Source: Gammaproteobacteria bacterium | Lineage (GTDB): Bacteria; Pseudomonadota; Gammaproteobacteria; UBA12402 | Assembly: GCA_050123335.1 (NCBI GenBank) | Contig: JASFHH010000004.1 | Span: 3,561 to 67,560, forward strand | DNA length: 64,000 bases | Reading direction: 5' to 3' | Part shown: in pieces, positions 12,289 to 32,078 of the stretch | Layout: the number at the start of each line of letters is the position of its first letter | Position numbering within the stretch: the first letter of the stretch is position 1 | Position numbers and translations under genes: made by a program | The notes under the pieces: model-generated | The model's database searches: none | Told to the model about the DNA's origin: nothing | Seen by the model: only the letters and a program-made list of their open reading frames with translations

Positions 12289-12289
12289 A

Positions 12290-12376: not shown

Positions 12377-12388
12377 GGAGAGAAAACA

Positions 12389-13165: not shown

Positions 13166-13183
13166 TCATCCAGGAGAAATAAA

Positions 13184-14482: not shown

Positions 14483-14485
14483 AAT

Positions 14486-15145: not shown

Positions 15146-15154
15146 TAGGAGATA

Positions 15155-15361: not shown

Positions 15362-15376
15362 TGCTAGACAAAAATA

Positions 15377-16096: not shown

Positions 16097-16223
16097 ATTA
16101 TCTTTCCAATATCAATGAAACTGTGTATTTTATCACTAATTATATGTAATAACAAATGAGATTTTGGTTCCAAAGTGGAGCAAAAAAATGTATCATGAGG
16201 CCTAGTAAAAAAGAGAATTAATT

Positions 16224-17237: not shown

Positions 17238-17245
17238 GCAATATA

Positions 17246-18532
17246 ATGCAGCAATCAAATGATAAGATCACAATTCTTGGATGTTTTATTTGGCTTTTAG
17301 CCGCTTCATTTTTTTTGTATGAATTTTTTCTACGTACTTTCATTGGAACAATTGCTGATGAAATTACAAGTTCTTTGCATTTAGGCGCAGAACAATTATC
17401 CCTAATAGGTGCAGCATATTTTGTTACTTATGGAATTATGCAAGCGTTTGTTGGTGTACTAATTGACTCATTCGGGATAAAAAAATTACTAGCAGCAGCC
17501 ACTTTTATTTGTGTAGCAGGAGTTTTTCTCTTTACGTTTGCACAGGGATTTATTCTATTACTAATAGCACGTTTATTAATGGGTTTTGGTTCGGCATTTG
17601 GTTTTGTGAGTTTATTAATGTTGTCACTTAATTGGTTTCCGCATAAACATTTTGGATTTATTGCGGGTTTGTCGCAACTTTTAGGCGCAGTAGGGCCTTT
17701 GTTAGCTGGTGCACCATTAGTCATTTTGCTTACAAGTTTACATAATAATTGGCGTATTGTGTTAGGAGGTATTGGTGTTACAGGATTATTGATTGGGTGT
17801 TTAATATGGATTTTTGTTAGAGATTTTCCAAAAAATGTAGATAATAAAATCATTTATTTAAATAAGGAAAAACCCATATATAAAAAATTAATTAATTTAT
17901 TCCGCAATACTCAAGCATGGTTAATAATTATATATGCAACTTTAGCAAATTCTAGTTTGGCAATATTGGGCATAGTGTGGGGCACAACGTATTTAGAAAC
18001 TCATAATTTCTCGCAGAAAAATGCAGCTTTGGTATCCTCGTTAATTTGGGCAGGATATGCGATAGGTTGTCCCATACTAGGGTTTATCTCTGATTTTTTG
18101 AAACAACGCAAATTACCCATGTTAATATGTGCTTCTTTAGGGCTTGTTGCAAGTATTTTCACAATTTACACCCCAATTAATAATATATATATTTTTTCTT
18201 TAATATTTTTCTGTTTAGGAATCGCAGGATCTGGACAAAGCTTAGCTTTTGCAATCATGTCAGAACGCATCCGACCAGAAACTCATGCAACGGGTTTTGG
18301 TATAAATAATGGACTGCTTATGTTATCCACAACGTTGTTGATTCCATTGTTCGGATTATTTATTAAATTGTCGCAACCGCACGCTAGTATGAAATATCAG
18401 TCAGAAAATTTTATTTTGGGGTTAAGCATGATGCTTGTAATATATATAGTTGCAATTACAATATGTTTCTTTATTAAAGAAACATATTGTAGACAGCAAA
18501 CTATTCCTGTTAAATTGGATACAGAAAAATAA
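17246..18532 (+). CDS. MFS transporter (Pht-like)
   Basis: FFLYEFFLRT, GVLIDSFGIKK, GFISDFLKQRK. Confidence 0.88.
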   Translation: MQQSNDKITILGCFIWLLAASFFLYEFFLRTFIGTIADEITSSLHLGAEQLSLIGAAYFVTYGIMQAFVGVLIDSFGIKKLLAAATFICVAGVFLFTFAQGFILLLIARLLMGFGSAFGFVSLLMLSLNWFPHKHFGFIAGLSQLLGAVGPLLAGAPLVILLTSLHNNWRIVLGGIGVTGLLIGCLIWIFVRDFPKNVDNKIIYLNKEKPIYKKLINLFRNTQAWLIIIYATLANSSLAILGIVWGTTYLETHNFSQKNAALVSSLIWAGYAIGCPILGFISDFLKQRKLPMLICASLGLVASIFTIYTPINNIYIFSLIFFCLGIAGSGQSLAFAIMSERIRPETHATGFGINNGLLMLSTTLLIPLFGLFIKLSQPHASMKYQSENFILGLSMMLVIYIVAITICFFIKETYCRQQTIPVKLDTEK

Positions 18533-19845
18533 TGAATATTTTTTTAAACAAAACACAAACAAAAATTTCTTTACTAGGCTGTTTTATTTGGTCGCTAGCT
18601 GCATTGTTTTTCTTATATGAATTTTTTCTGCGTACTTTTTTAGGAAGTATTGTTCATGAAATCACAATCGCATTAAAAGTTAACGCCGAACAATTGTCAT
18701 ACATAGATGCAGGTTATTATTTAACTTATGGTTTGCTGCAAATCCCTGTCGGCATTTTAGTTGATAAATATGGAGCAAGATTATTATTAACTATTTTTAG
18801 TTTCGTGTGTGCATTAGGGGTTTTCGTTTTTTGTTTCGCACATGGCCTCGCTACTGGAATAATAGGGCGCTTTTTAATGGGCGCCGGTTCAGCATTTGCT
18901 TTTATATGTTTATTAAATCTGACTTTAAACTGGTTTCCGCAAAAAATTATGGGATTTATTTTTGGATTAGCTCAATTTCTAGGTGCTATTGGCCCAACAA
19001 TAGCTGGAGCGCCTTTGGTTATATTATTATATAAAATGCACGATAATTGGCGTTTAGTGTTTTTTTTAATAGGGCTTGTTGGCATATTGCTTGCCATTCT
19101 TATCGGAATATTTGTTCGCAATAAACCAAAATCATTTAAGTTACAATTAAAGTTCCTAAGCAAATCATCATCTTTAATGAAAAGACTAATTACGCTTGTG
19201 AAAAATCCACAAGCATGGTGGATTGTTCTATATTCAGCAGCAAATTACGTAGCGCTCGCTTTTTTAGGAACACTATGGGGTACCACTTATATAGAAACCA
19301 GAGGCATTAGTCACGAAACAGCAGCATTTATTTCGTCAATGGTATGGTTTGGATTGGCATTTGGTTGTCCGTTTTTCGGTGCAATTTCAGATATTATCAA
19401 GCGAAGGAAAACCACCTTAATCGCAAGTGCAATTTTAGGCATCTGTATGGTTTTAGCGATAATATACTGTCCGATAAATAGCAAAATAATATTTGCTTTA
19501 TTATTCTTTGGATTAGGAGTTGCGGGATCAGGCCAAAGCGTTGCGTTTACCACAATCGCTGAACACGTTGAAGTAAATTTGCATGCTACAGCTCTAGGAT
19601 TTAATAATGCGGGGATAGCTTTCGCCAACACGATGATGATTCCCTTAATTACTGCTTTAATTCAATTATCATTTCATCAGCATTATGTAACTGGCAGACA
19701 AATTTATCATCAATCTAATTTTACTCTGAGCTTGTTATCCCTAGCTACATTATTTTTAATTTCATTAATCGTTGCTATTTTTGGGATCAAAGAAACATTT
19801 TGTCGCCAACAAAAAGAGTTTTTTAAGTTGCGGATCGTGCCTTGA
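18532..19845 (+). CDS. MFS transporter (Pht-like), tandem paralogue of previous gene
   Basis: FFLYEFFLRT, GILVDKYGAR, shared KET.CRQQ tail. Confidence 0.88.
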   Translation: MNIFLNKTQTKISLLGCFIWSLAALFFLYEFFLRTFLGSIVHEITIALKVNAEQLSYIDAGYYLTYGLLQIPVGILVDKYGARLLLTIFSFVCALGVFVFCFAHGLATGIIGRFLMGAGSAFAFICLLNLTLNWFPQKIMGFIFGLAQFLGAIGPTIAGAPLVILLYKMHDNWRLVFFLIGLVGILLAILIGIFVRNKPKSFKLQLKFLSKSSSLMKRLITLVKNPQAWWIVLYSAANYVALAFLGTLWGTTYIETRGISHETAAFISSMVWFGLAFGCPFFGAISDIIKRRKTTLIASAILGICMVLAIIYCPINSKIIFALLFFGLGVAGSGQSVAFTTIAEHVEVNLHATALGFNNAGIAFANTMMIPLITALIQLSFHQHYVTGRQIYHQSNFTLSLLSLATLFLISLIVAIFGIKETFCRQQKEFFKLRIVP

Positions 19846-19963
19846 AAAACATACATTAATGTTTTATTTTAAAAAAACTTCATATATTTATGATTTTAAA
19901 CGCTTTTTAATATAAGAGAAGAAAAACATTGATCGGCGATCAATAAAAGTTAAAAATATATAT

Positions 19964-20242
19964 ATGCTTAAAAACTATTTTACCAATGCTATGATCTGCG
20001 CCGCAGTAACATTTCTAGTTACCGGGGTATTAGCCTTTATACCATTAGTATTTTCAATTGTCATTCTAATAATTTTAAGCATTCTCTGGCTATTTTTTAG
20101 CACAGTTGGTTGGTTATCTGTAACAATCTCAATTATAGCGTTAATTGCAGCTATCTTATTTTGTCTGCCATTTATTACCGCTTTAATCGCTGGAATAGTA
20201 GGTTTTATTTGTGGAATTTTTAATGTAAAAAGCGCTGAATAG
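19964..20242 (+). CDS. small hydrophobic membrane protein
   Basis: 92 aa, almost wholly hydrophobic. Confidence 0.55.
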   Translation: MLKNYFTNAMICAAVTFLVTGVLAFIPLVFSIVILIILSILWLFFSTVGWLSVTISIIALIAAILFCLPFITALIAGIVGFICGIFNVKSAE

Positions 20243-20285
20243 GATGTTTATGAACCAAACCCGACAAATTTTGCACTTTTGCGTG

Positions 20286-20353
20286 TAAGCGCTTGATTTT
20301 ATTACCAAAAGCCACCAACATAAACTTTCGGTTTGATCTTTAACCCATTGATT
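20286..20353 (-). promoter_or_regulatory. two IHF consensus sites
   Basis: - strand AATCAA-GCGC-TTA (20286-20298) and AATCAA-TGGG-TTA (20341-20353) match WATCAANNNNTTR. Confidence 0.45.
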
Positions 20354-20590
20354 AATTTGGATATTCTAAATTGAACCGGTTTATGATGTTTAACACGATT
20401 TTTGCCCGGTAAACTATAAGCATTAATCTAAATAATAAATATAGTGATGGCAATTTTTTTTAGAAATGCTATCCTTAACGTTGCATGATTTCTAAGCCAT
20501 TCGTTTTGATCACTTCGAAAGTTAGTTTTTCAAAAATCAGAAAGCCTAAGTTATTAAGCAGTATTTTATTTTTAAAAAAGAGAGATATTT

Positions 20591-20863
20591 ATGAAAAAAT
20601 TATATGTTGGTAATTTACCTTATTCAGTTACAGAAGAAAGTCTTGAATCGTTATTTTCACAATTTGGACAGGTTGAAAGTGTTGTCATTATCAAAGAAAG
20701 AGAAACAGGCCGCACAAAGGGGTTCGGCTTTGTGGAATTTAAAAAACAAGCCGATGCTGAATCTGCCTTAGAATTAAATGGGAAAGATTTTGAAGGTCGT
20801 CTATTAAAAGTTAATATGGCTAAACCAAAAGAATCTAGTGCTGGAAGAGGGCGTCGTTGGTAA
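20591..20863 (+). CDS. RRM-domain RNA-binding protein
   Basis: RNP2 LYVGNL and RNP1 KGFGFVEF. Confidence 0.93.
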   Translation: MKKLYVGNLPYSVTEESLESLFSQFGQVESVVIIKERETGRTKGFGFVEFKKQADAESALELNGKDFEGRLLKVNMAKPKESSAGRGRRW

Positions 20864-20961
20864 CAAGGAAGATGGATGGGATTGGGAAAAGATGAAGATT
20901 GTAGGTTGAACCAACATATAGAGCGGTTTTGCCCTTGAATTCAGGGCCACTTAACCCATAT

Positions 20962-20990
20962 TATCTCCGATAAGTTTTCTTATCTACTAC
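20962..20990. other. dif-like tyrosine-recombinase site 1
   Basis: ATCTCCGATAA-GTTTTC-TTATCTACTAC (11-6-11). 13-bp arm 20962-20974 is inverted at 27822-27834. Confidence 0.65.
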
Positions 20991-21299
20991 AAATATTTAT
21001 ATCGTAATTATAGTAATAAAAGTTGTTGATTTTTATTTTTTAGTTACTTAGAATACGCATTATCTTAATAATTTTTATTATAGTAATCTTAGTACTTAAA
21101 GTATAAATATATTAAGAAATGTGTTTATTGGCTGTTTAAAAAAATAATAATTTTTGATGAGATACGGTAATGTGCTGATGATTAATCAGTGGCTTAAAAA
21201 GTGTTAAGAAGTCAAGGCTCCCCGAGTGGAACTAATGTTAGAGTATTGACATAACGAAAATAGCACTCGGAAGCTTTGGATAAATGGGATCCATTATAG

Positions 21300-22406
21300 A
21301 TGAAAGCGCAAAAAATAAAGCTAAATGACAATACTCAACCTTTTTGGATTGTGGTTGGAGACGATTATTTGCCCATTAAGTCAATCTACCAATATCTATT
21401 TTTTTTACGCAGCATCGATAAATCACCTAACACTATTAGAACTTATGCGCACCATTTAAAAATTTTTTGGGAATATCTTGCAATCAATCAATTAGAGTGG
21501 AACAAAATAAATATCGAAAAATTAGCTCGTTTTGTTGCCACACTTAATGGTTTGATTGATGGCAAAATTACCAATTTAAGCATCCCTAAAGGAAAACGCT
21601 CCGCTCGAACCATTAATCAAATAATTGTTGCTGTCGCTGGATTTTATCAATACCACCATAGATTGGGACAAGCACCTAATATGCCATTATATGATTGGAA
21701 AAGGCCATTTATAACAGGAAAATCTTTTAAACCATTTTTACATCACATTAACAAATCGAAAAAACAACGTAAAAGTTTTATTAAACTTAGAGAAGAAAAA
21801 AAATTAGCTCAAGTCGTTGAACCTGAAATCATAAAACAAATGATTGCTAATTGTAAACGCATCAGAGATAAATTTCTTATTTGCCTTTTGTATGAAACCG
21901 GTTGCCGTATTGGACAAGCGCTTGGATTACATCACGAAGACATAGAAACTTTTAACAACATTATCATGATTCGTCCGCGAGATAATAATTTTAATAATGC
22001 TAGAGCGAAAACTCGACAAATGAATAAAATAAATGTTAGTAAAAATTTAATGAACTTATATTATGAATATTATATGAAAGAATATGGTGATATTAAAAGC
22101 GATTATGTGTTTATAAATTTATGGCAAGGGAAAATTGGTAATCCTATGACTTATAATGCTGTCATTACACTATTTAATCGTCTAAGCAAAAAAGTTGGTG
22201 TTCATGTAACACCTCATATGTTGCGTCATACTCATGCAACTGAGTTAATCAAAGCAAAGTGGGGAATGGCACATGTTCAAAAACGCCTTGGACATCAAAA
22301 TATTCAAACTACAATTAACACATATACTCATATTACAAATGATGATCTAAAAGAACAATTTCAAGATTATTTGCAAAGCAGGGGTGATGATTTATGCCAA
22401 AATTAA
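21300..22406 (+). CDS. Tn554-family TnpA-like tyrosine recombinase
   Basis: SPNTIRTYAHHL, ETGCRIGQALGL, HMLRHTHAT, LGHQNIQTTINTY. Confidence 0.88.
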   Translation: MKAQKIKLNDNTQPFWIVVGDDYLPIKSIYQYLFFLRSIDKSPNTIRTYAHHLKIFWEYLAINQLEWNKINIEKLARFVATLNGLIDGKITNLSIPKGKRSARTINQIIVAVAGFYQYHHRLGQAPNMPLYDWKRPFITGKSFKPFLHHINKSKKQRKSFIKLREEKKLAQVVEPEIIKQMIANCKRIRDKFLICLLYETGCRIGQALGLHHEDIETFNNIIMIRPRDNNFNNARAKTRQMNKINVSKNLMNLYYEYYMKEYGDIKSDYVFINLWQGKIGNPMTYNAVITLFNRLSKKVGVHVTPHMLRHTHATELIKAKWGMAHVQKRLGHQNIQTTINTYTHITNDDLKEQFQDYLQSRGDDLCQN

Positions 22407-23884
22407 ATATTTTGCCTCAAACAAATAAAAATCTTATTGATAACAACCCAATTTGGTATAAAGATGATATTTGGTCTCTTGAAAATTTAGGCATAAATGG
22501 TAACAAATCAGATAAATACAATACGATTAGTTTTAAAAAAATCCAACAACCATGGTTAAAACACCTTCTTAAAAAACACATTCTCTTTAAAGGAATTAGT
22601 AGAGGCTGTCATTCTATAACTAAAATGGTCGCATCTATTATTTATTTCTCTGAATATCTTTCTGCATTACCAGAAAAACAACAAATATATTCTGAAACGG
22701 AAATTTCTCGAACTTTAATCGAAGGGTATTTGAGATTTTTAGGAAGCAGCGACAATTCTTATAATACCAAAAACCAAAAACTCAATGCGCTTAAGCGTTT
22801 TTTTGAAACTTGTATTGATCAAAAATGGGTTCCTTTTAATGGAAAATTAATCTATCCCGAAGATATTCCAAAACCAGCGAATAAACTACCACGATTTATA
22901 CCAGAATCAGTTATGGAGCAATTAAATGCGAAATTAAACAAAATGAATCCTTATGTAAAACGCATGCTTATAACACTTCAAGAAACAGGAGTAAGAATTG
23001 ACGAGCTATTATCATTAAATTTTGATTGTATTTATCAAGATCGAGAAGGTGATTATTTTTTAAAGTATTTTCAATTTAAAATGAATAAGGAACATGAGAT
23101 ACCGATATCGCATGACTTAGCTTCAATTGTAAGAGAGCAACAACAAACTGTTCGTGATGATTGGGGTGACCACAAATTATTATTTCCTACACCACAATAT
23201 ATTTCTTTAAATAACTCAAATAAGCGTCGAGCTAAGAATAGGGGGAAAAAGTGGTCAAGACGTGTTTTATCACAATATGTAAATGATTTTGCACGAGCTG
23301 AAAATATACTTGGTCCTGATGGAAAACCATGGCAATTTAAGTTCCATGATTTTCGTCATACATTAGCTACAAGAATGATTAACAGTAATATTAAGCAACA
23401 TTTTATACAACATTTTTTAGGTCATGAAAGCCCAGAAATGACATCACGTTATGCTCATGTACATAATGAAACTCTAAAAAAAGAATTTGCTACATTTTAT
23501 AATCAAAATTTAGTTAGTATTTCCGGTGATATTAGCACCCCAGAAAATGTAATTGATGATATTGCACAAGGCACAAGCCCAAAAGAAATTGATGAGCTTT
23601 GGCTAAAACGAAATATAATGGCGCAAGCTTTACCTAACGGCATGTGTTCTTTACCAGCAATTTCTAATAAATGCCCACATGCTAATTCTTGCTTAACATG
23701 TGCAAATTTTCGTACAGATAAACGATTCTTGAAAATTCACAAAGAACAATTGGAAAAAACGCAAAAAATTATTAATACGGCGCAAAAAAACGGATGGGAA
23801 CGACAATACGAAATGAATTGCACCGTAAAGAATAGTTTAGAAAAGATTATAACTACTTTAGAGGAACAATCTAATGACACATAA
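22394..23884 (+). CDS. Tn554-family TnpB-like tyrosine recombinase
   Basis: ETGVRIDE, HDFRHTLAT, LGHESPEMTSRYAH. C-terminal ALPNGMC..P...CPHANSCLTC. Confidence 0.88.
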   Translation: MPKLNILPQTNKNLIDNNPIWYKDDIWSLENLGINGNKSDKYNTISFKKIQQPWLKHLLKKHILFKGISRGCHSITKMVASIIYFSEYLSALPEKQQIYSETEISRTLIEGYLRFLGSSDNSYNTKNQKLNALKRFFETCIDQKWVPFNGKLIYPEDIPKPANKLPRFIPESVMEQLNAKLNKMNPYVKRMLITLQETGVRIDELLSLNFDCIYQDREGDYFLKYFQFKMNKEHEIPISHDLASIVREQQQTVRDDWGDHKLLFPTPQYISLNNSNKRRAKNRGKKWSRRVLSQYVNDFARAENILGPDGKPWQFKFHDFRHTLATRMINSNIKQHFIQHFLGHESPEMTSRYAHVHNETLKKEFATFYNQNLVSISGDISTPENVIDDIAQGTSPKEIDELWLKRNIMAQALPNGMCSLPAISNKCPHANSCLTCANFRTDKRFLKIHKEQLEKTQKIINTAQKNGWERQYEMNCTVKNSLEKIITTLEEQSNDT

Positions 23885-24293
23885 ACGCAATACAGATGGC
23901 ATGGTTCAAGCAGCAAAACAACGGCGCTTAGATACTATTAGACGTGTAGAAAAGGCCATAGAGAGCTTATTACGCGATAATAAGGCCATTAATTTCAATG
24001 TAGTTGCAAAATTAGCTAACGTTGGTAAACCATGGTTATATAAAGAGGAAAAAGTAAGGCAGCGTATCGAAAATTTGCGCTCACAAACACAGTTATGTAA
24101 AAATAATTCACCAAATGATTCTCAGAATATAAGTAATAAATCCAAAGGTAATATTATCGCTATGTTAAAAGATCGTATACGTACGTTAGAAGATGAAAAC
24201 AAGCAACTTAAAGAGCAAAGGGAGGTATTATATGGCAAATTGTGCATGTCAGAAGACATGGGGTGTGAAATACATACATTGGATGTCCGATAA
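23874..24293 (+). CDS. Tn554-family TnpC-like (DUF6262) protein
   Basis: INFNVVAKLANVGKPWLY followed by a coiled coil ending LYG. Confidence 0.82.
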   Translation: MTHKRNTDGMVQAAKQRRLDTIRRVEKAIESLLRDNKAINFNVVAKLANVGKPWLYKEEKVRQRIENLRSQTQLCKNNSPNDSQNISNKSKGNIIAMLKDRIRTLEDENKQLKEQREVLYGKLCMSEDMGCEIHTLDVR

Positions 24294-24310
24294 CGGTTAT
24301 TACCAGACAT
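24283..24310. other. dif-like tyrosine-recombinase site 2, directly upstream of recombinase gene
   Basis: ATGTCCGATAA-CGGTTA-TTACCAGACAT. Arms are 9/11 inverted-complementary; the site ends 34 bp before ATG 24345. Confidence 0.7.
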
Positions 24311-24344
24311 TGAATATAGCCCATAAATCTGTTAGGATTCAATA

Positions 24345-25547
24345 ATGACGTATGAAATTGCTACTCCTGCTGCCATTATAGATAACCTTGAACATCTCAA
24401 GGAACAAACCCTATTTTCTCATCCTAATTACAATAAATTAGTATTTACACAGCAAGATTTTAATCTTGTTAAGCAATTTTTATTAAATTATGTGGGCAGC
24501 AAAGCGACTTATAACACCTATAGGCGCGAAATTGAGCGTTATTTACAATGGCTATGGCTTGTGCAAAATCGCTCAATACTTAAAGTAAAACGTAAAGATG
24601 TTGAGATATATCTTGGATTTTGCGCTAATCCTCCAAAAAATTGGATTACGAACAATCATTTTCCTCGATTTATCTTAAAGGATGGCATAAGACAACCAAA
24701 TCCAGTTTGGCGGCCATTTGTGTTAAAAAACGATAAAAAACGCTATTTAATGTCGCAAGCTGGTTGGAAATCATTATTTGCTGTCTTAGGCAGTTTTCAC
24801 CAATTTTTAATTGAAGAAGAACACGCAGAAATTAACCCAATTGCGCAAATTCGACAAAAATCCAGATTTATTCGTAAAGAACAATCAAGACAACAAGTAC
24901 GTCGATTAACAGAACTACAATGGAATTATGTGATAGAAACTGCTGAAATAATGGCCAATCAAGATCATCAATACGAACGTACTTTATTTATCGTATCTTG
25001 TTTATATGGTATGTATTTAAGAATCTCAGAGCTAACGGCAACGGATCGCTGGATACCTCAAATGAATAACTTTTATCAAGATAATGAAGGCGATTGGTGG
25101 TTTAAAACTGTTGGAAAAGGCAATAAAGAACGAATTATATCTGTTAGCGACGCTATGTTAGAAGCGTTAAAACGTTATCGCAAAAATCGGGGATTACCTG
25201 CCCTACCTTCCCTTAACGATATATCTCCTTTAGTTGCTAAAAGTCATGGCGAAGGTGCAATAACATCAACACGTCATATTCGCCGCATTGTGCAACAATG
25301 TTTTGACCAAGCAATTCAAAGAATGATAAAAGATAATTTTGTTGATGAAGCAGAACAACTGAAAGCAGCAACTGTGCATTGGTTGCGGCATACGGGAATC
25401 TCAGATGATGTAAAAATACGTCCTCGCGAACACGTGCGCGATGATGCTGGCCATGGCTCTGGTGCAATTACTGACAGATATATTGACATTGAACTAAGAC
25501 GACGTCATGCTACTGCTAAAAAGAAAACTATTAAACCGGATGATTAA
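24345..25547 (+). CDS. intact tyrosine recombinase, candidate single-subunit Xer
   Basis: Catalytic set YLRISEL, GKGNKER, HWLRH, DAGH, TDRY all present. Not XerC/XerD-like in overall sequence. Confidence 0.85.
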   Translation: MTYEIATPAAIIDNLEHLKEQTLFSHPNYNKLVFTQQDFNLVKQFLLNYVGSKATYNTYRREIERYLQWLWLVQNRSILKVKRKDVEIYLGFCANPPKNWITNNHFPRFILKDGIRQPNPVWRPFVLKNDKKRYLMSQAGWKSLFAVLGSFHQFLIEEEHAEINPIAQIRQKSRFIRKEQSRQQVRRLTELQWNYVIETAEIMANQDHQYERTLFIVSCLYGMYLRISELTATDRWIPQMNNFYQDNEGDWWFKTVGKGNKERIISVSDAMLEALKRYRKNRGLPALPSLNDISPLVAKSHGEGAITSTRHIRRIVQQCFDQAIQRMIKDNFVDEAEQLKAATVHWLRHTGISDDVKIRPREHVRDDAGHGSGAITDRYIDIELRRRHATAKKKTIKPDD

Positions 25548-25566
25548 AAACTTAGAGGAAAAATAA

Positions 25567-25992
25567 ATGTTAGCTAAAACTGTTAAGTTCATTTTTTGCG
25601 CCACACTACTATTTTGTTCTGTAGGTTTTGCTTCTGGCACAAAAACTAAATATTTTATTACGGGTGAATATCTTTTACCTAAGTGTCATGCGGCAATAAG
25701 ACTTTTAAATAAAGACAACATACAATCTGGTGATGGTGTAAATGCTACTGTTTGTAGTACTTTTGTCATGACATCCATGGATGCATATAATCAATTTTTG
25801 AGTGATTCTGCAAAAAATAATACTGATTATATTAAAAAAGCCAATAGATTACCGAGTAACTTATTTGTTCTTATTAGAATGTTTACAAAATACCTTGATG
25901 AGCATCCAGAACAATTGCAATATTCTGCATATCAAACTTTTTTTGTGTTTTGCACTTCGCTGGAAATGCATGCTACGAAAAAAAATAATTAA
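25567..25992 (+). CDS. exported Rap1a/Tai-like immunity-fold protein
   Basis: Signal peptide; TGEYLLPKC, C..FV...MD, FTKYLDEHPEQLQYSA. Confidence 0.65.
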   Translation: MLAKTVKFIFCATLLFCSVGFASGTKTKYFITGEYLLPKCHAAIRLLNKDNIQSGDGVNATVCSTFVMTSMDAYNQFLSDSAKNNTDYIKKANRLPSNLFVLIRMFTKYLDEHPEQLQYSAYQTFFVFCTSLEMHATKKNN

Positions 25993-26016
25993 CACATAAT
26001 AACAAGAGGAAGTGTT

Positions 26017-27729
26017 ATGAAAAAAAGTGGTTACTCATCATCAGAATCAAATATTCCTTGGAATACAATCAAAGGGCAAGAGCTTGAAAAACTAGTATAT
26101 GATATTTTTTCTTCAAGAGGTGCAAAAGAGTTAGTTTGGCGAAAAGGAAGTATTGGCAAAAGTGCTAGCGACGGAGGGCGAGATCTTGAATGCACATTTC
26201 ACCGCCCTTCTCCCTTTGGAGAATTAGAATCGGAAAAATGGTGGGTGCAAGTAAAAGGAAGAAAAGATACTATTAAAACTGATGAGGTTAAAAAAATAAT
26301 AAATCATATTGTAATTGCATATCAGGAAGTAGATGTAATTGTAATAGCAACCAATTCAATTTTCACAAATGCGACAAGAGATTGGATTGACAAGGTTCAA
26401 AAAACCCATAAAAGACCAAAAATTAAAATGTGGGATCAAAATACGCTCGATAAATTAATTATTAAGTATTGTCCTGCTATAATTATGCAATATGATGCAA
26501 ATTTACAAATAAAAAATGAAAGTAAACAAAATACAACTGTGAAAAAAAGAACACCTGTTGCAATTTTCGATACCATAAAATATATTAGAAAACAAAACTT
26601 ATTTCTACATTCAAATTATAACAGATTATCTTTTGTCAAACAGGATTTTGCGTACGCGAAGCAATTTTTATTAAATTATACAAGAAGAGAGGCAACTTAT
26701 AACACTTATAGGCGCGAAATCGAGCGTTATTTGCAATGGTTGTGGTTAAATCATAAATCTATATTGCAAGTAAAACATCAAGACATTGAGTTATATCTTG
26801 CATTTTGCAGTGATCCTCCAAAAAATTGGATAGCAGAAAAACATGCCCCCAGATTTATTTTAAAAAATGGCTTACGACAACCAAATCCAACTTGGCGACC
26901 TTTTGACCTAAATAAAAACAAAAAATCATATTCTATGTCGCAAGCTGGTTGGGAATCGTTATTTGCTGTTTTAGGTAGCTTCCATAAGTTTTTGATTAAA
27001 AAAAAACATACCGAAATTGACCCAATTATACAAATTGATAGATCAAGGTTTATTTGTGAAAATCAATCTAAACAGCAAATACGTCGATTAACTAAATTGC
27101 AATGGAATTACGTTATCGAAACCGCTGAAATTATGGCAAATAGAAATCCGAAATATGAACGCACATTGTTTATTATGTCCTGCTTGTATGGAATGTATTT
27201 AAAAATTTCAGAACTAGCCGCGAATAATCGCTGGATTCCTAATATGAATCATTTTCACCAGGATAGTGATGGCAAGTGGTGGTTTAAAACAGGTAACAAC
27301 AAAAAGCGCAATATTCCAGTTAGTGATGGGATGTTGGAAGCCTTAAAACGTTATCGCAAAAGTCAGGGGTTGCTTGCTCTGCCCTCACCTAGCGACACCA
27401 CACCACTAATTGTGAAAGAACGTGGTGATGAGGCGATTGCTTCAACTCGTCAAATTCGCACCATTGTGAAAAAATGTTTTGATCAAGCGATTAAGCGTAT
27501 GAAGCAAGATGATTTTTCTGATGATGCAGAACAATTAGAAGTTGCTACCGTACATTGGTTACGTCATACTGGCATTTCAGATGATGTAAAAAATAGGCCA
27601 TGGGAACATGTACGAGATGATGCTGGACATAGCTCTGGAGCAATCACCGAAAAATATATTGACACTGAGAGCAAACAACGACATGCTACAGCTAAGCGGA
27701 AAACTATTAAATCGGAGGATATAAATTAG
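26017..27729 (+). CDS. Mrr-type restriction endonuclease fused to paralogue of 24345 recombinase
   Basis: N-terminal ELEKLV, DGGRD, WWVQVK, IATNS.FT. C-terminal ~390 aa highly similar to 24345..25547 but reads YLKISEL and lacks GKG. Confidence 0.85.
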   Translation: MKKSGYSSSESNIPWNTIKGQELEKLVYDIFSSRGAKELVWRKGSIGKSASDGGRDLECTFHRPSPFGELESEKWWVQVKGRKDTIKTDEVKKIINHIVIAYQEVDVIVIATNSIFTNATRDWIDKVQKTHKRPKIKMWDQNTLDKLIIKYCPAIIMQYDANLQIKNESKQNTTVKKRTPVAIFDTIKYIRKQNLFLHSNYNRLSFVKQDFAYAKQFLLNYTRREATYNTYRREIERYLQWLWLNHKSILQVKHQDIELYLAFCSDPPKNWIAEKHAPRFILKNGLRQPNPTWRPFDLNKNKKSYSMSQAGWESLFAVLGSFHKFLIKKKHTEIDPIIQIDRSRFICENQSKQQIRRLTKLQWNYVIETAEIMANRNPKYERTLFIMSCLYGMYLKISELAANNRWIPNMNHFHQDSDGKWWFKTGNNKKRNIPVSDGMLEALKRYRKSQGLLALPSPSDTTPLIVKERGDEAIASTRQIRTIVKKCFDQAIKRMKQDDFSDDAEQLEVATVHWLRHTGISDDVKNRPWEHVRDDAGHSSGAITEKYIDTESKQRHATAKRKTIKSEDIN

Positions 27730-27805
27730 TTACATTAAAAGCAAGATACATGGAATACTATAAATACTTGCTTGCTTATTATAACTGCTTGTTTTTAAAA
27801 AATTT

Positions 27806-27834
27806 GATGTGGTTTAATTTTCTTATCGGAGATA
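27806..27834. other. dif-like half site 3
   Basis: TTTTC-TTATCGGAGATA. Shares TTTTCTTATC (27818-27827) with 20975-20984. Confidence 0.6.
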
Positions 27835-27846
27835 GCGAGAGCCTCT

Positions 27847-28674
27847 CTAATCCAAGAAATTTAAAATACATTCCGTAATCTGTTCCCAAATCGTTTTGTT
27901 AAAAAACACATGTCCGACTTCTGGCAAAATGATTACATTAAATTTATTTTTTAAAGCTTTAATCTCATCAACTAGCGCCAATATATCTTCTTCTCCATGA
28001 ATTAATAATAAATTATCTGGTAATTCTTGCGATAAATCAGTTTTTGTCATTCCTGCCGCTATATGATTCCAGGCTGGATTAAAATCACCTTGATGGCGAT
28101 TATAAATACTTTGCGTGTAATTCTTTGCCATTTGTTCATCAATTGGGATATCTCCATGCAACAATTTCCAACTATTAAGCCACCCTGCCCAATCTTTTTT
28201 AAAATTGCCAGTTGGTTTATTCTTAAATAATTCTTGCATTGTTGCTTTATATTTTGGATGCTCAAGGATTTGTTCGCTAATGTTAATCGATATCGAAATC
28301 GCACTTAAAGTTCTATCTGGATGTTTTACTGTCAAATATTGCACGATAGCGCCACCCATAGAATGACCGATAAAATGAGCTTTTTGAATATTATAATCAT
28401 CTAAAATATTTAATGCATCTTCTGCAAGATCAGCAAGCGTGTATACAGGTTTATTAAGATCTTTAGTAACGGGAAAATGTGTAGAATAACCAATATCCCG
28501 ATGATCATAGCGAATAACAAAATATCCGGCATTAGCCAATTCTTTACAAAAAAAATCTGGCCAAAAAGTACTAGGTGCGTGTGCACCAGCAATTAGCAAA
28601 ATTGCATGATTGTTTTTGTTGCCGAAAGATTCTGTCCATATGTTTATACTATTTTTTACAACAATTTTTTCCAT
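27847..28674 (-). CDS. alpha/beta hydrolase
   Basis: RYDHRDIGYS, GHSMGG, HGEED, GH catalytic-triad motifs. Confidence 0.9.
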   Translation of the reverse strand: MEKIVVKNSINIWTESFGNKNNHAILLIAGAHAPSTFWPDFFCKELANAGYFVIRYDHRDIGYSTHFPVTKDLNKPVYTLADLAEDALNILDDYNIQKAHFIGHSMGGAIVQYLTVKHPDRTLSAISISINISEQILEHPKYKATMQELFKNKPTGNFKKDWAGWLNSWKLLHGDIPIDEQMAKNYTQSIYNRHQGDFNPAWNHIAAGMTKTDLSQELPDNLLLIHGEEDILALVDEIKALKNKFNVIILPEVGHVFFNKTIWEQITECILNFLD

Positions 28675-28676
28675 TT

Positions 28677-28837
28677 ATAAAATATTCTCTTTTTAAAGCC
28701 ATAATTCTGTTATACGATAAATCTATTCTTTGTTCTGATATAACTCCTTGTTTAATAAGTTGGTTGATAATCTGTATAACTTTAATAGCCTGCATGTGTA
28801 AATCATCAGTTATTACAATTTCTTTGAAACCTAACTT
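28677..28837 (-). pseudogene. displaced, internally deleted duplicate of nagZ 3' end
   Basis: 28677-28783 matches 32104-32210 (99/107). 28785-28837 matches 32317-32369. Confidence 0.93.
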
Positions 28838-28990
28838 GGCCTATTATTTAGCTTTCTAGCGATAATGACAAGCTTATTATGATCAATATTGTTAAAATTT
28901 GTGCCTTTTGGTAAATATTATCTAGACTTTTGACCCGGATTAGCTTAGCATATTTCATGATCTCATTCGCAACCCAAATGTCTACAAATT

Positions 28991-31900
28991 ATGCTTAATG
29001 GTAATTATAAGGTCTATTTAAAACTAAAAGAATGCATCAAAACTAATTATACAAATATTAGATCGTATAAAACATTACAACTAGTAGAAACGACCAAAAT
29101 TTTACAATTAACTAAACAGGCAATCGGGTTTGTGCGCAATTATGAGATAGAGTTTATTTGTAATAAAAAAATGATTATTACTTCGAAGATAAAACCTAAA
29201 ATTGTAATAAAAATAAACTCCAGAACACGCTCAACGATAATCAGCCTTCCCTTTAAGCAGCAATTGATTCACCTTAAACCTAAAATATTTATTTCAAATA
29301 CTGATTGTATGCTTATTGGATTTATATTGGAAAATGTTTATGCTAAGCATAATAAGAAAAACTGGAAGTTTGGTAAAGAAAAAAAAAGGCGATTGGTTAC
29401 GCACTTAATGTTTGTTTTATTTCCATGCCTCAATGCACTGTTGCACCAAGTTGCAGAATTCAAAAGCGTAGATGAAGCACTAAAGATCTACGATTTTATT
29501 ATAGAGAATATTGCAGCTAACTATATGAAAATTGGCGCTCTTGTAAAAAAAGGAATGCTGCAACAGTATGTTTTACGAAAAAATGATAAGGCAATTAAAT
29601 CTTATCAAGATGCATATAAGATTTGCAAAAAAATAAACTGCTATGATCTTATTTTTGTGCTAACATGCCTTTACCCTATATTTCATAACAGTAAAAATTT
29701 ACCACTAAAAATTTGGTTTCCTGAATCTTTGCATAAGATAATATGCAAAAAACTAAATAAGCATTTTGGCCCATATCTAAAGAGTCAAATAGCTTTATTG
29801 GTAACTGGGTTTACTAAGGAAGAGAACATTGAACTAAAAATTTTTATTGTCCGAATATATGAATGCTATATAAAGTATGCTATTTTAAATAAAATAAAGC
29901 TAAGCAATAAATTATTGCATAAATTTTACTTAACACAACATAGAACCCATGGATTAAGCTTGGAAGATCTATTTGATCTTGCGGTCTCAAAAAATAATTT
30001 TCTGATAGCTCTTGCTTTGTATGATGAAGAAAATAAACTAAATCCCGCTAATATAGATTTTTATATAAAATTTATTATCTTTACAATAGATCAAAACCAA
30101 ACAATTATAGCAAATAAATTGCTAAACAAGCTTAGTGAATATTCTAAAGCTGTAGAAAGCAGCAAATACGCAATTATTTTTTATCTACTAAATGGTAATG
30201 CTAAGCAAGCTAAAAAGTGTAAATTCGGTAATATAAGTAACCTTGAGTTAATCACAATAAATAATTATCTTGGTAAAAAGGTTGCAAAAAATCTTAAAAT
30301 AATTCTTAATAAGATTGAATCAAAAATAAATACTGTGTCAAAAAAGAATAAACACAACAAGCGCAATAAAAAAAGAAAAATTAAAAAGAAACGTAAGCAA
30401 CAAAAAAAACTATTTATGAAAGCTGATGAAAAACAACAAACTATGAAACCGAAAACCAAGATAGAAAAAAAACCCCCAACCCCTATTTACATACCAGGAA
30501 GCAAGATAAACCCTGAAATTATAGAAATTATAAAGGCTATACAAAATAAATGCCCTGTTATTATGATTATTGGTTCAGCCATGCTGCGTCATCTGTATAA
30601 TAAACCTCCCACTGATTACGACATGCTTGTTGGCTGTAATCTTGACGAGATAAAATTATTTATACCAAAAAAATATTCAGTCACTTTTATAGAGGGCGAA
30701 CATCCACACTTGGTTGTTAAATATGGTAAAAACAAAACCGTTGATATTAACACTTTGATTTATAAAACCATGGTTGTTATTTGTAAACGTATAGATTATC
30801 AAACCACGAAGAAATTATACCAAACTATTTTTCGTTTAGTAGATAGATTTATAGTCCTTATGTGTATAGATAATGGCAAGCTCACTATGATTGATATTAT
30901 ATGGTTTGATGATAGAACTAACAATATAAGATTTCAGCAGATAACAAAAAAACATAAGTCAAAATTGTTTAATAAACTTTGGAATTCGTACATTCAGCAA
31001 TTAAAAAAGCGCAAAAAAAATACCATATATAAGTTTTTTATCAAGAATCATATAATAACAGTACATATAGCAAAGCTGTTTGAGGTTACTGATATAGAGA
31101 TACCATTGAAGCGTTATTTACGTGGTGGTACTGCAACCATAACCTCAATTGGCTGGTCATATAATCAAAAAGAAAATGTATTTTATACAAAAGACGATTT
31201 TTTTGGTGGATTACTTCACTTAAAAAGTAAAAAAGTTGTATTGATTCATAATCCAACAACAACTTTCAACCAATCTCCAGAAAAGGCATATAGGATTATA
31301 TATTATGCAATTGCTTTTGGCTTTGAACTCAAAGAAAAAACACTTAAATCTCTACAAAAACGTAAAGATCTTCTATTTAAAAAACCTTATGCCCCACATC
31401 CAAATACTATTTATAAATATATTAAAAAATTGTTGTTAGAAGACGGGGCTGCCACCATTAAATATATTAACAGCAATAAATTGTGGCATTTGGTGCCACT
31501 ATTTAAACTGCCTAACAGCAAGTTTCCTACAGAAAGAGATATTATCTTCTATATTGAATGTTTTACAGAGCTCAGAAAGGCTGTTCGAAACATACAGCAA
31601 ATTAAAGAAGAAATCATCATCCCAGCAATTTTACTATATCCAAACATTCATGAAGCATTGAAAACTTTTACTATGATACTACAACAATCTCGATGCTGGC
31701 GTACATTTTATTCAGTAGTCCATAACCTTATTATAAACGAAGAATATTTTAAGCCATTTAAAGCAGCAGCAAATTTTTTTGCTGCGATTGATACCATTAG
31801 GCATGTTATAGTTTATAGGAATGCTTCCATTCCCAAAAAATCTGACATTTCTAAGAAATTAACTATTGAAACAAAACTTCTGCTAAAGGGTTTTGAAATT

Positions 31901-32077: not shown

Positions 32078-32078
32078 C

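What the first reader, a model, noticed from the sequence alone, without database searches (positions are those of the whole stretch)
20962..27834. Candidate non-XerCD dif/recombinase locus at the replication terminus whose two ends rejoin into a perfect palindrome
Seen: gene orientation flips from mostly + to mostly - across this locus. Three related sites occur: ATCTCCGATAA-GTTTTC-TTATCTACTAC (20963), ATGTCCGATAA-CGGTTA-TTACCAGACAT (24283, 34 bp before an intact tyrosine recombinase) and TTTTC-TTATCGGAGATA (27818). Sites 1 and 3 share the direct repeat TTTTCTTATC. Joining them removes 6843 bp and yields TATCTCCGATAAG-TTTT-CTTATCGGAGATA, a perfectly symmetric site. Two GGGNAGGG (KOPS) octamers (227, 9817) point toward the locus; I did not scan exhaustively. 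Established: dif is 11-6-11 and sits at the terminus, and in XerS/difSL the single recombinase gene lies next to its site. Inference: 24345..25547 is a one-subunit chromosome-dimer resolvase, and its site is an integration hotspot that has accumulated dif-bounded modules. Alternatively the whole 6.8 kb is an element integrated into a palindromic dif. I recall a single-recombinase Xer/dif being reported for Legionella but cannot verify relatedness here.
Basis: partly seen in the sequence, partly recalled or inferred. Interest (0 to 1): 0.9.

Follow-up and report, generated by a model that had tools for sequence, protein, structure and literature searches.

The report
Transposon inserted in terminus dif site
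At the replication terminus of an uncultured bacterium, a 6.8-kb Tn554-like mobile element sits inside the palindromic site that a Legionella-type single recombinase (XerL) uses to unlink chromosome dimers, and the element carries a spare copy of that site and of the recombinase.

Summary
Three related 11-6-11 sites lie at 20963, 24283 and 27806-27833. Their 11-mer arm occurs 3 times in the window against 0.05 expected. GC skew and gene orientation both flip here.

The recombinase at 24345-25547 belongs to the XerL family. It is 55% identical over 99% of its length to the tested Coxiella burnetii XerL. The arms match 8 of 11 bases of the Legionella dif / LME-1 att.

Sites 1 and 3 are halves of one 28-bp palindromic dif. 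The exact unsplit site exists in a same-genus genome. An identical-armed site lies in the terminus zone of a complete genome.

New here: the 6,843-bp insert begins with a Tn554-family tnpA-tnpB-tnpC trio. All five other trio elements with readable upstream DNA also abut a dif-like site. The insert also carries site 2, an intact xerL and an Mrr-nuclease::XerL-like fusion.

Whether TnpA/B or XerL made the insertion is inferred, not shown. So is whether the 6.8 kb arrived as one unit. The dif/XerL system is already known; the dif-targeting Tn554-like element is a new variant.

The parts
20591..20863 (+). RRM-type RNA-binding protein gene, left neighbour of the split dif
   Evidence: Pfam RRM_1, E 7.8e-28. 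The block 20246-20870 is 81% identical to DNA next to the unsplit site in G001, but inverted there.
20963..20990 (.). Site 1 (attL-like hybrid): chromosomal dif left arm 20963-20973, spacer 20974-20979, element-borne right arm 20980-20990
   Evidence: The left arm and spacer are identical to the unsplit site G001:C45:3733-3760. The right arm matches the dif arm at only 6 of 11 positions, by reading the sequence.
20975..27817 (+). The 6,843-bp inserted segment. The crossover can lie anywhere in the 10-bp identity TTTTCTTATC.
   Evidence: Unsplit site in the congener. A joint skipping 6,843 bp occurs in a contig of run X1, but it belongs to the abundant relative. All genes in the insert are on the plus strand.
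21300..22406 (+). tnpA-like tyrosine recombinase, 368 aa
   Evidence: Pfam Phage_integrase, E 2.7e-35. It is 42-44% identical over 98% of its length to the first gene of Tn554-family trios on plasmids.
22394..23884 (+). tnpB-like tyrosine recombinase, 496 aa
   Evidence: Pfam Phage_integrase, E 7.3e-28. It is 37-38% identical over 94% to genes that include one annotated 'Tn554 family transposase B'.
23874..24293 (+). tnpC-like DUF6262 protein, 139 aa. Its last codons and stop lie in DNA shared with G001 and in the left arm of site 2.
   Evidence: Pfam DUF6262, E 4.3e-15. Homology to other trio third genes ends at about residue 123. Homology between G000 and G001 starts at 24267.
24283..24310 (.). 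Site 2: dif-like 11-6-11 site whose arms agree at 9 of 11 positions, with its own spacer CGGTTA
   Evidence: G001 has the perfect palindrome at the matching place. Similar sites lie about 20-60 bp upstream of xerL homologues in G007 and in 3 metagenome contigs.
24345..25547 (+). xerL-family tyrosine recombinase, 400 aa, intact
   Evidence: 55.0% identity over 99% to pQpH1 CBUA0010. The catalytic R226, H345, R348, H370 and Y379 align with that protein.
25567..25992 (+). 141-aa protein with a hydrophobic N-terminus; function unknown
   Evidence: Only a weak Rap1a match, E 2.8e-4, below the curated cut-off.
26017..27729 (+). Fusion of an Mrr-type nuclease domain (residues about 17-148) to an XerL paralog; 570 aa; the first catalytic Arg is Lys
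   Evidence: Pfam Mrr_cat E 5.5e-10 plus Phage_integrase. It is 68% identical to the 400-aa XerL. It reads YLKISEL where the others read YLRISEL, and has a 2-residue gap in GKGNKE. No other protein of 313-998 aa shares its N-terminal part.
27806..27833 (.). Site 3 (attR-like hybrid): element-borne left arm 27806-27816, spacer 27817-27822, chromosomal dif right arm 27823-27833
   Evidence: The right arm plus 16 flanking bases are identical to G001.
27847..28674 (-). Alpha/beta-hydrolase gene, right neighbour of the split dif
   Evidence: Pfam Abhydrolase_1, E 5.8e-21. It is 92% identical to the gene next to the unsplit site in G001.

Best explanation
This is the XerL-type, single-recombinase dimer-resolution region at the replication terminus of an uncultured gammaproteobacterium related to Coxiella. 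Sites 1 and 3 are the two halves of one 28-bp palindromic dif (ATCTCCGATAA-GTTTTC-TTATCGGAGAT). It was split by a 6,843-bp insertion whose left end is a Tn554-family transposition module (tnpA, tnpB, tnpC). Most likely a circular form of this element recombined with the dif at or within its spacer, catalysed by the element's own TnpA/TnpB tyrosine recombinases. That left two hybrid sites, each with one good XerL arm and one element-derived arm. The insert also holds a second dif-like site with a different spacer (site 2), 34 bp upstream of an intact xerL. This pair is the best candidate for the working resolution site in this genome. Shown: the anatomy, the family memberships, the unsplit site, the terminus position, and the repeated link between trio elements and dif-like sites. 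Inferred: which enzyme made the insertion, that site 2 with this XerL resolves dimers, and that the 6.8 kb arrived as one unit.
For: 1. XerL and dif. The 400-aa protein is 55% identical over 99% to C. burnetii XerL, which PMC9765430 (Results read) reports as functional. Catalytic residues are conserved. No XerC or XerD model reaches its cut-off in the assembly: best 97.7 and 101.6 bits against cut-offs of 335 and 330.

2. The site family. The arm ATGTCCGATAA matches AAGTCTGATTA of the LME-1 att at 8 of 11 positions (passage in PMC5071653). The palindrome ATSTCCGATAA-N6-TTATCGGASAT occurs in 62 metagenome contigs with 39 different spacers. In a class sample its core occurs in 28 of 401 genomes, against 6 for the reversed-pattern control. 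XerL homologues occur in 18 of those 28, against 69 of 372 without the site.

3. Terminus. The skew and orientation flips are at the locus. In a complete 1.71-Mb genome (G399) a site with identical arms lies at 1,592,732. Sampled skew there turns from +0.026 (1.53-1.55 Mb) to -0.017 and then -0.071.

4. Insertion. The exact 28-bp unsplit site is at G001:C45:3733-3760, beside the 92%-identical hydrolase gene.

5. Tn554 family. Two tyrosine recombinases are followed by a DUF6262 gene, 37-44% identical to plasmid trios including one annotated 'Tn554 family transposase B'. The trio was not found in G001 or in 39 further relatives, apart from one 30% match.

6. Recurrence. In 5 of 5 other trio elements with readable upstream DNA, a dif-like arm, a 6-bp spacer and a TTATC/TAATC arm lie 62-77 bp upstream of tnpA. 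These are G381, G291, G310, the Legionella sainthelensi plasmid (which has Legionella-type arms) and a second left end in G271. In G291 the outer arms rejoin into a 9-of-10 palindrome. In G381 a half-site 4.5 kb downstream repeats the right arm. All 4 of these genomes carry XerL homologues. Two classical Tn554-family plasmid copies have no such palindrome.

7. Ends. The element's inner ends agree at 13 of 19 positions as inverted repeats in fixed register (pair I2). The right terminus ...GTTTA recurs in G381 and, as ...ATTTA, in G271.

8. Independent sample. Pieces of the insert occur with 0-4 differences in a second study's run.
Against: 1. The congener G001 has site 2 (as a perfect palindrome) and the xerL ortholog between the same outer flanks without the trio. 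Its unsplit palindrome sits elsewhere with different neighbours. So the 6.8 kb may be composite, and its history needs several steps that I could not reconstruct.

2. The tnpC frame has lost its native end and reads into DNA shared with G001.

3. G+C is 30-31% over the trio but 34% over the xerL part, which equals the genome. That suggests different origins.

4. Nothing shows which enzyme acted. A 10-bp shared core is what any tyrosine recombinase, XerL included, would leave.

5. The subterminal motif evidence is weak: 16 matches in the window against 15.4 expected.

6. Only 6 trio elements in all were available, and a phylum sample of 400 genomes added none.

7. Both genomes are draft metagenome assemblies. 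G000 is 92% complete, so further XerL genes or dif sites may be unassembled.

8. Skew around the G291 element did not show a terminus.
Confidence: 0.62

Rival explanations
1. IMEX-type capture. The 6.8-kb element was integrated by an XerL recombinase (the host's or its own) acting on the dif and on a weak dif mimic on the element, as LME-1 does in Legionella. On this reading the Tn554-like trio is a passenger or a later arrival.
For: The element sits exactly in a dif. It is flanked by one arm-intact, spacer-sharing site on each side, like LME-1's intact and modified dif (PMC9765430, Results read). It carries two XerL-family genes. Several trio elements carry a good XerL-type arm at their left end (TTATCGGAA in G291 and G381).
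Against: The reconstructed element site has poor XerL arms: 6 of 11 and 3 of 11 against the consensus, by reading. In G381 the two flanking spacers differ at most positions (ATTTAC against TATATA), which a Xer-type exchange within the spacer would not leave. Five other trio elements without XerL cargo sit at the same relative position. IMEX elements by definition lack a recombinase of their own.
Confidence: 0.17
2. Resident dif plus module accumulation. Site 2 with its xerL is the resident terminus module, and separate modules have piled up on either side of it: the trio on the left; the small protein, the fusion and the hydrolase on the right. The two half-sites were brought in by those events.
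For: G001 has only site 2 and xerL between the same flanks. The trio differs in G+C from the rest. The tnpC to site 2 junction is scarred. In G220 and G299, pairs of such sites bracket 2.8 kb and 7 kb of recombinase-free cargo, including alpha/beta-hydrolases. The palindrome-hydrolase unit has different neighbours in G000 and G001.
Against: Sites 1 and 3 are exact complementary halves of a site that exists unsplit, with the same spacer, in the congener. Two independent insertions would not be expected to bring matching halves. Site 2's spacer (CGGTTA) shares nothing with GTTTTC, so it is not a product of exchange with them. Site 3 has the poor-left, good-right form seen at the right junction of other trio elements.
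Confidence: 0.15
3. Artefact. The contig is a chimera of two co-occurring strains joined at the shared palindrome, or the palindrome is merely a terminator hairpin between convergent genes.
For: Run X1 holds two related populations at depths of about 8-13 and 85-115. The Logan contigs break at 20833-20954, 25431-25504 and 27848. The unsplit site is a 13-bp stem with a 4-base loop between convergent genes.
Against: Contigs identical to the window (0 differences) cover 19635-20832, 20955-25430, 25505-27847 and 28703-29500 at one consistent depth. The second run X2 holds insert pieces. The arms are conserved across 62 unrelated contigs while the spacers vary, and they co-occur with XerL. A plain terminator would not show this.
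Confidence: 0.04

Closest known systems
dif/XerL of Legionella pneumophila and Coxiella burnetii (Nicholson, Deecker and Ensminger 2022, PMC9765430; outline, Results and Discussion read)
   Same: A single tyrosine recombinase of the same family (55% identity to XerL of C. burnetii). The dif has uninterrupted inverted-repeat arms, a 6-bp spacer and low G+C. It lies at the GC-skew inflection. No XerC/XerD was found. As on the C. burnetii plasmid, a dif-like site lies next to xerL.
   Different: The arms differ at 3 of 11 positions from the Legionella site. There are three XerL paralogs, and two dif-like site types with different spacers in one genus. Here one dif is split by an element. I could not find the C. 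burnetii plasmid site in the sequence, because the paper gives it only in a figure.
LME-1, the Legionella IMEX (PMC5071653 passages; PMC9765430)
   Same: A mobile element integrated in the XerL-type dif, leaving altered site copies at its ends.
   Different: LME-1 carries a near-exact 22-nt copy of the dif and relies on host XerL. The element here has a poor mimic, and it carries a Tn554-type trio plus XerL genes of its own.
Tn554 family of unit transposons (Tn554, Tn558, Tn6674; passages in PMC7371108 and bioRxiv 10.1101/2020.09.30.320143)
   Same: The order tnpA-tnpB-tnpC at the left end with cargo to the right. A size of about 6.8 kb. Site- and orientation-specific insertion. A short core at the junctions. 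Left-end repeats resembling those of classical members.
   Different: The classical target is att554 in radC. Here, and in 5 relatives, the target is a dif-like palindrome. The cargo is recombinase genes and a dif-like site, not resistance genes. That classical members lack terminal repeats and carry a 6-7-bp core from the donor site is recalled, not checked here.
XerS/difSL and XerH/difH single-recombinase systems (as described in the Discussion of PMC9765430)
   Same: The recombinase gene lies next to its site, as one module (site 2 plus xerL).
   Different: A different recombinase family. Those sites have only partial dyad symmetry.
pdif modules of Acinetobacter plasmids (recalled, no call)
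   Same: Short cargo modules bracketed by Xer-type sites. The site pairs in G220 and G299 look similar.
   Different: Those use XerC/XerD sites in inverted orientation. Sites 1 and 3 here are direct repeats around an element that has its own recombinases.

Membership tests
XerL/dif dimer-resolution system | Recombinase homologous to an experimentally validated XerL | tested here: met
   55.0% identity over 99% coverage, E 4e-145, to pQpH1 CBUA0010. It falls within the family tree that includes that protein (quick tree, careful search not finished).
XerL/dif dimer-resolution system | Complete tyrosine-recombinase catalytic set, including the C-terminal Tyr | tested here: met
   R226, H345, R348, H370 and Y379 align with XerL of C. 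burnetii. The fusion paralog has Lys in place of the first Arg.
XerL/dif dimer-resolution system | A dif of about 28-30 bp with uninterrupted inverted-repeat arms of 10-12 bp around a short spacer, related to the Legionella site | tested here: met
   The unsplit site and the perfect version of site 2 in G001 have 11-bp (extendable to 13-bp) perfect arms. The arm matches 8 of 11 positions of the LME-1 att quoted in PMC5071653. Site 2 in this window has 2 arm mismatches.
XerL/dif dimer-resolution system | Site at the GC-skew inflection (replication terminus) | tested here: met
   Met at contig level only for G000 and G001. In the complete genome G399 it is met within the roughly 90-kb resolution of the sampling.
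XerL/dif dimer-resolution system | No XerC/XerD in the genome | tested here: met
   No match over the curated cut-offs. The assembly is 92% complete, so this means 'not found'.
XerL/dif dimer-resolution system | Recombination at the site depends on the recombinase; loss causes filamentation | not testable with these tools
   Needs experiments.
Tn554 family transposon | Adjacent tnpA and tnpB (both tyrosine recombinases) followed by a small tnpC | tested here: met
   Pfam. 37-44% identity to Tn554-family trios, with a DUF6262 third gene.
Tn554 family transposon | Insertion into att554 within radC | tested here: not met
   The target is an intergenic dif-like palindrome. The classical copy examined lies after a JAB/RadC-type gene.
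Tn554 family transposon | Site- and orientation-specific insertion with a short core at the junctions and no long target duplication | tested here: inconclusive
   There is a 10-bp shared core in G000, 8 bp in G291 and 14 bp in G381, always with tnpA next to the chromosomal left arm. The exact cleavage points are unknown.
Tn554 family transposon | Circular intermediate | not testable with these tools
   Only assembled contigs of the runs were available.
IMEX (integrative mobile element exploiting Xer) | Integrated at dif and flanked by dif-derived sites | tested here: met
IMEX (integrative mobile element exploiting Xer) | Encodes no recombinase of its own and depends on host Xer | tested here: not met
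   Four tyrosine-recombinase genes lie inside the insert.

The most novel reading that the evidence does not exclude
A lineage of Tn554-family tyrosine transposons homes to the XerL-type chromosome dimer-resolution site, using the dif spacer as its insertion core. The copy in this genome has picked up a dif-xerL cassette and a nuclease-XerL fusion. It therefore destroys the host's dif and replaces it with its own module at the terminus, which could make the host dependent on the element. The fusion, an XerL body with its first catalytic Arg replaced and joined to a PD-(D/E)xK nuclease, might cut unoccupied sites.
Probability: 0.25. Interest if true: 0.8.

Novelty: new variant of a known kind. 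Interest (0 to 1): 0.6.

Why it matters
The XerL/dif system was described only in 2022, and one element (LME-1) is known to exploit it. If this reading is right, a second and mechanistically different class of element targets that site: unit transposons with their own paired tyrosine recombinases. The XerL-type palindrome also appears far beyond Legionella and Coxiella. It was found in 62 environmental contigs and in 28 of 401 sampled gammaproteobacterial genomes.

The locus gives a natural test case for how a cell tolerates disruption of its only dimer-resolution site. It also shows how differing spacers could insulate co-resident dif-like sites from one another, and how xerL paralogs turn over between close relatives. 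In G000 the palindrome is split and this xerL is intact. In G001 the palindrome is intact and that xerL is disrupted.

In the held library, neither paper containing both 'Tn554' and 'dif site' links the two (one search checked the passages of one of them). No paper holding 'XerL' or 'DUF6262' appears, from its listing, to describe such elements.

Tried and rejected
- **C. burnetii plasmid dif.** I looked for the site said to lie beside xerL on pQpH1. I found no convincing palindrome within 1.5 kb on either side. The paper shows it only in a figure, so no direct comparison was made.
- **Genome-contig scan with the XerL protein.** It gave only 7 distant loci (47-56% identity). They were of no use for junctions and were used only in the tree.
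- **Tree of 27 XerL-like proteins.** The careful search did not finish. The quick tree groups the two window paralogs with G007 (support 99) but leaves the third paralog unresolved. No vertical-versus-horizontal call was made.
- **Synteny around the site in G012.** Its neighbours map to six different G000 contigs, so it is uninformative.
- **Contig-end overlaps among G001 C45, C48 and C33.** None were found. The ends of C48 and C33 are copies of a multi-copy repeat.
- **Reads.** Only assembled contigs were available. No contig identical to the window joins across the insert, and no circle junction was seen. The one joint that skips 6,843 bp has only 20 letters on its shorter side and a depth of 51, so it fits the abundant G001-like relative. 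This is no evidence for or against excision. Stretches without identical cover (20833-20954, 25431-25504, parts of 27848-28702) prove nothing.
- **KOPS.** There are 4 octamers on the contig and 45 in the genome, too few to test. A search for skewed octamers gave only A/T-rich words.
- **More trio elements.** A phylum sample found 0 in 400 genomes besides G000. A viral-contig scan found only 25-33% identical phage integrases.
- **Skew at the G291 element.** No terminus signature was seen, with only 4.7 kb available on one side.
- **Promoter and terminator scan of the insert.** Counts were at the shuffle level.
- **Arm-like hits on G000 C32 and C57.** One is the start of a tRNA gene and the other lies inside a coding frame; both are chance.
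- **Left-end motif.** The window-wide count equals expectation. Only its position near the right end is suggestive.
- **N-terminal nuclease part of the fusion.** Only the protein itself was found among proteins of 313-998 aa. Shorter proteins were not searched.
- **History linking G000 and G001.** I tried single insertions, inversions and single-crossover models on paper. None gives the observed order in one step, so it is left open.
- **Supplementary tables of PMC9765430.** Tables S1 and S2, which hold dif positions and sequences, were closed and may bear on the arm comparison.

Full report
**1. The observation**

The three sites are at the stated coordinates.
- Site 1 (20963-20990): ATCTCCGATAA-GTTTTC-TTATCTACTAC.
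- Site 2 (24283-24310): ATGTCCGATAA-CGGTTA-TTACCAGACAT. It ends 34 bp before the ATG of the 400-aa recombinase gene.
- Site 3: spacer ATTTTC (27817-27822) and right arm TTATCGGAGAT (27823-27833), preceded by a poor left arm.

The 11-mer ATSTCCGATAA occurs 3 times in the 64-kb window against 0.05 expected, and none of 100 shuffles reaches 3. It occurs 4 times in the whole 1.9-Mb assembly. The fourth lies inside a coding frame, and another arm-like hit is the start of a tRNA gene. Joining the 10-bp direct repeat TTTTCTTATC removes 6,843 bp.

**2. The terminus**

Cumulative GC skew of the window peaks at about 27-28 kb. On the whole 72-kb contig, mean skew is +0.045 left of site 1, +0.048 in the insert and -0.093 right of site 3. 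Open frames of at least 200 aa run 12 plus / 3 minus on the left and 4 plus / 20 minus on the right.

The genome is in 97 contigs, so a genome-wide skew curve is not possible. GGGNAGGG is too rare to test polarity: 4 on the contig, all pointing inward, and 45 in the genome.

**3. The recombinase and site family**

The 400-aa protein is 55.0% identical over 99% of its length to the recombinase CBUA0010 of the Coxiella burnetii plasmid pQpH1. Nicholson et al. (PMC9765430; Results and Discussion read) name this protein XerL. They report that it can replace the Legionella pneumophila XerL/dif system. The catalytic residues align.

No XerC or XerD model reaches its cut-off in the assembly. The family is large: 6,023 proteins at E <= 1e-10 among the 8,000 scored. 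It is present in 16 of 41 relatives' genomes and in 87 of 400 genomes of a class-wide sample.

The 22-nt LME-1 att, quoted in PMC5071653 (passage), has the arm AAGTCTGATTA. The arm here, ATGTCCGATAA, matches it at 8 of 11 positions, with the same 6-bp spacer length.

A scan of metagenome contigs for ATSTCCGATAA-N6-TTATCGGASAT found 62 contigs. There are 39 different spacers; 55 contigs have G-type arms, 6 have C-type and 1 is mixed. So the arms are conserved and the spacer is free. Three of these contigs have a xerL homologue starting about 30-60 bp from the site, and one has it 4.4 kb away. G007, another genus of the same family, has a 74%-identical xerL about 20 bp from such a site.

In the class sample the 16-base core TCCGATAA-N6-TTATCGGA (up to 1 mismatch) occurs in 28 of 401 genomes, against 6 genomes for the reversed control. 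XerL homologues are present in 18 of those 28, against 69 of the 372 scored genomes without the site. Of the 16 genomes listed with an exact match, 13 have XerL. Related genomes are not independent, so this is an association and not a formal test.

In the complete 1.71-Mb genome G399, a site with arms identical to the outer arms here lies at 1,592,732. Sampled skew is positive from about 0.54 to 1.55 Mb, -0.017 at 1.58-1.60 Mb, and -0.071 at 1.64-1.66 Mb. That places the site in the terminus transition.

**4. The unsplit site**

A same-genus genome, G001, is about 92% identical in syntenic DNA. It carries ATCTCCGATAA-GTTTTC-TTATCGGAGAT unsplit at C45:3733-3760. Its 16 bases on one side are identical to the right flank of site 3. 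Its 28 bases on the other side are similar to the left flank of site 1. The 92%-identical hydrolase gene lies beyond a 1.4-kb G001-specific stretch. So sites 1 and 3 are halves of a pre-existing palindrome, and the 6,843 bp is an insertion or excision polymorphism.

G001 also has the perfect-palindrome form of site 2 (ATGTCCGATAA-CGGTCA-TTATCGGACAT) at C48:12332. This follows DNA syntenic with window 8072-20210. It precedes the first 46 codons of the xerL ortholog. The last 67 codons open contig C33, which continues into DNA syntenic with window 28676 and 32100-60019. The break is made by the two ends of a multi-copy repeat, and no middle part of the gene is in that assembly. This xerL is therefore disrupted in G001.

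Skew turns from positive (C48) to negative (C33) at that point. G001 has another intact XerL paralog, 449 aa and followed by rdgC, 4.8 kb from its unsplit palindrome. The third paralog of G000 (contig C25, with an nhaA-type gene) is a 2.8-kb indel absent from the syntenic place in G001.

**5. Anatomy of the insert (all genes on the plus strand)**

- A 368-aa tyrosine recombinase.
- A 496-aa tyrosine recombinase.
- A 139-aa DUF6262 protein.
- Site 2.
- The 400-aa XerL.
- A 141-aa protein of unknown function.
- A 570-aa fusion of an Mrr-type nuclease domain to an XerL paralog. The paralog part is 68% identical to the 400-aa XerL. Its first catalytic Arg is Lys, and it has a 2-residue gap in the GKGNKE loop.

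The first three genes are 37-44% identical to Tn554-family trios on plasmids. One second gene there is annotated 'Tn554 family transposase B', and the third genes are DUF6262. The trio was not found in G001 or in 39 other relatives, apart from a 30% match in G011.

**6. Other trio elements**

A class sample gave 4 more genomes with the trio out of 400, and the plasmid search gave one on a Legionella sainthelensi plasmid.

| Element | Site upstream of tnpA | Distance to tnpA | Second junction |
|---|---|---|---|
| G381 | TTCCGATAA-ATTTAC-TTATCGGAA | 62 bp | 4.5 kb downstream: ...ACGTTTAA-TATATA-TTATCGGAACCAAG, repeating the right arm |
| G291 | TTACCAATAA-GCTTTC-TTATCGGAACC | 74 bp | 3.4 kb downstream: TTTTTC-TTATTGGTAT; outer arms rejoin at 9 of 10 |
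| G310 | TTCCAGTAA-AATTTA-TTATCTGTTCC | 77 bp | not seen |
| L. sainthelensi plasmid | GGTCTGATTA-TCTCGT-TAATCAGACC (the Legionella arm type) | 76 bp | not seen |
| G271 | upstream cut by the contig end | - | after tnpC, a right-end/left-end junction ...GCATTTA-ACAGTTA-TTATCAGCTAC |

All four genomes carry XerL homologues of 56-57% identity. Two classical family members, on a Staphylococcus aureus plasmid and a Proteus mirabilis plasmid, have no palindrome upstream of tnpA. The first follows a JAB/RadC-type gene, the classical target (PMC7371108 passages).

In G000 the inner ends of the insert agree at 13 of 19 positions as inverted repeats in fixed register. The right terminus ...GGTTTA resembles those of G381 and G271. 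This favours site 3, and not the tnpC-site 2 junction, as the right end of the element.

**7. Mechanism**

The simplest reading is conservative site-specific integration of a circular element at the dif spacer, always with tnpA next to the chromosomal left arm. I favour TnpA/TnpB as the catalysts for three reasons. They are the transposition proteins of this family. Five relatives without XerL cargo sit at the same position. And the spacers on the two sides can differ (G381), which fits the tolerance of core mismatch that I recall for Tn554 but did not check here. Catalysis by XerL, in the IMEX manner, is not excluded.

Site 2 has an unrelated spacer, so it should not recombine with sites 1 or 3. 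With the intact xerL next to it, at the skew switch, it is the best candidate for the working dif. This is inference.

**8. What does not fit**

G001 has site 2 and xerL alone between the same outer flanks. The trio has 30-31% G+C against 34% for the rest of the insert and for the genome. The tnpC frame has lost its native end: homology to relatives stops near residue 123, while DNA shared with G001 begins at 24267. So the xerL part may have been captured from the host lineage, or the region may have been built in several steps. I found no one-step path between the two arrangements.

Run X1 holds a G000-like form at depth 8-13 and a G001-like form at 85-115. The joint across the insert belongs to the latter. 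Run X2, from another study, holds insert pieces with 0-4 differences.

**9. Known and new**

The dif/XerL system and one IMEX at it are known. The adjacency of site and gene resembles the C. burnetii plasmid and the XerS and XerH systems.

In the held library, 2 papers contain both 'Tn554' and 'dif site'. I read the passages of one and saw only the listing of the other. Neither links the two. Six papers contain 'XerL', two of them relevant. Two contain 'DUF6262', both unrelated by title. A dif-targeting Tn554-family lineage, and a copy carrying a dif-xerL cassette, therefore appear to be undescribed there.

**10. Caveats**

Both genomes are draft metagenome assemblies, and G000 is 92% complete. 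Only six trio elements were available. No enzyme activity is shown.

Noticed in passing
window 28676-32400: A 1,028-aa open frame (28991-32077) with no Pfam family lies in a 28-30% G+C stretch. About 160 bp at 28676-28837 duplicates the start of the DNA at 32100 onwards. G001 has only one copy, directly after its xerL remnant.
   Followed up: partly
window 26017-27729: The Mrr-nuclease::XerL-like fusion appears unique. No other protein of 313-998 aa in the 5.8-billion-protein collection shares its N-terminal 175 residues at E <= 1e-5. Shorter stand-alone relatives were not searched.
   Followed up: partly
G220:C4:86933-89782 (L163) and G299:C1:116380-123353 (L164): Pairs of dif-like sites bracket 2.8 kb and 7 kb of cargo without any recombinase: alpha/beta-hydrolases, a GFA-family protein, a GNAT acetyltransferase and an ankyrin-repeat protein. 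In G220 the two spacers are oppositely oriented.
   Followed up: partly
G335, several contigs: One genome of the class sample has 19 copies of the palindrome core, and all copies listed carry the same spacer. It has no XerL match at E <= 1e-60. This looks like a repeated element carrying the site.
   Followed up: no
class sample: The same spacer (TAAAGA / TCTTTA) recurs with exact arms in at least 6 genomes of different families (G026, G104, G168, G196, G220, G381) and in 4 metagenome contigs.
   Followed up: no
L098:286-1404 and L079: In two metagenome contigs a 295-aa Xer-like recombinase starts about 200 bp from an ATGTCCGATAA palindrome. Its best match is 181 bits to the XerC model, below the cut-off.
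   Followed up: partly
G000:C25:12736-15504 (L001:7632-10400): The third XerL paralog and an nhaA-type antiporter gene form a 2.8-kb indel relative to G001. It is bounded by repeats of about 60-130 bp that occur on many G001 contigs.
   Followed up: partly
G001:C45:3688-3807 (L027): The unsplit palindrome in G001 is nested inside a further 31-bp inverted repeat. Several metagenome copies also extend the dyad by about 8 bp with unrelated sequence.
   Followed up: no
window 19500-29500 in run X1: One wetland sample holds two congeneric populations, at about 10-fold different depth, that differ in the state of this locus.
   Followed up: partly
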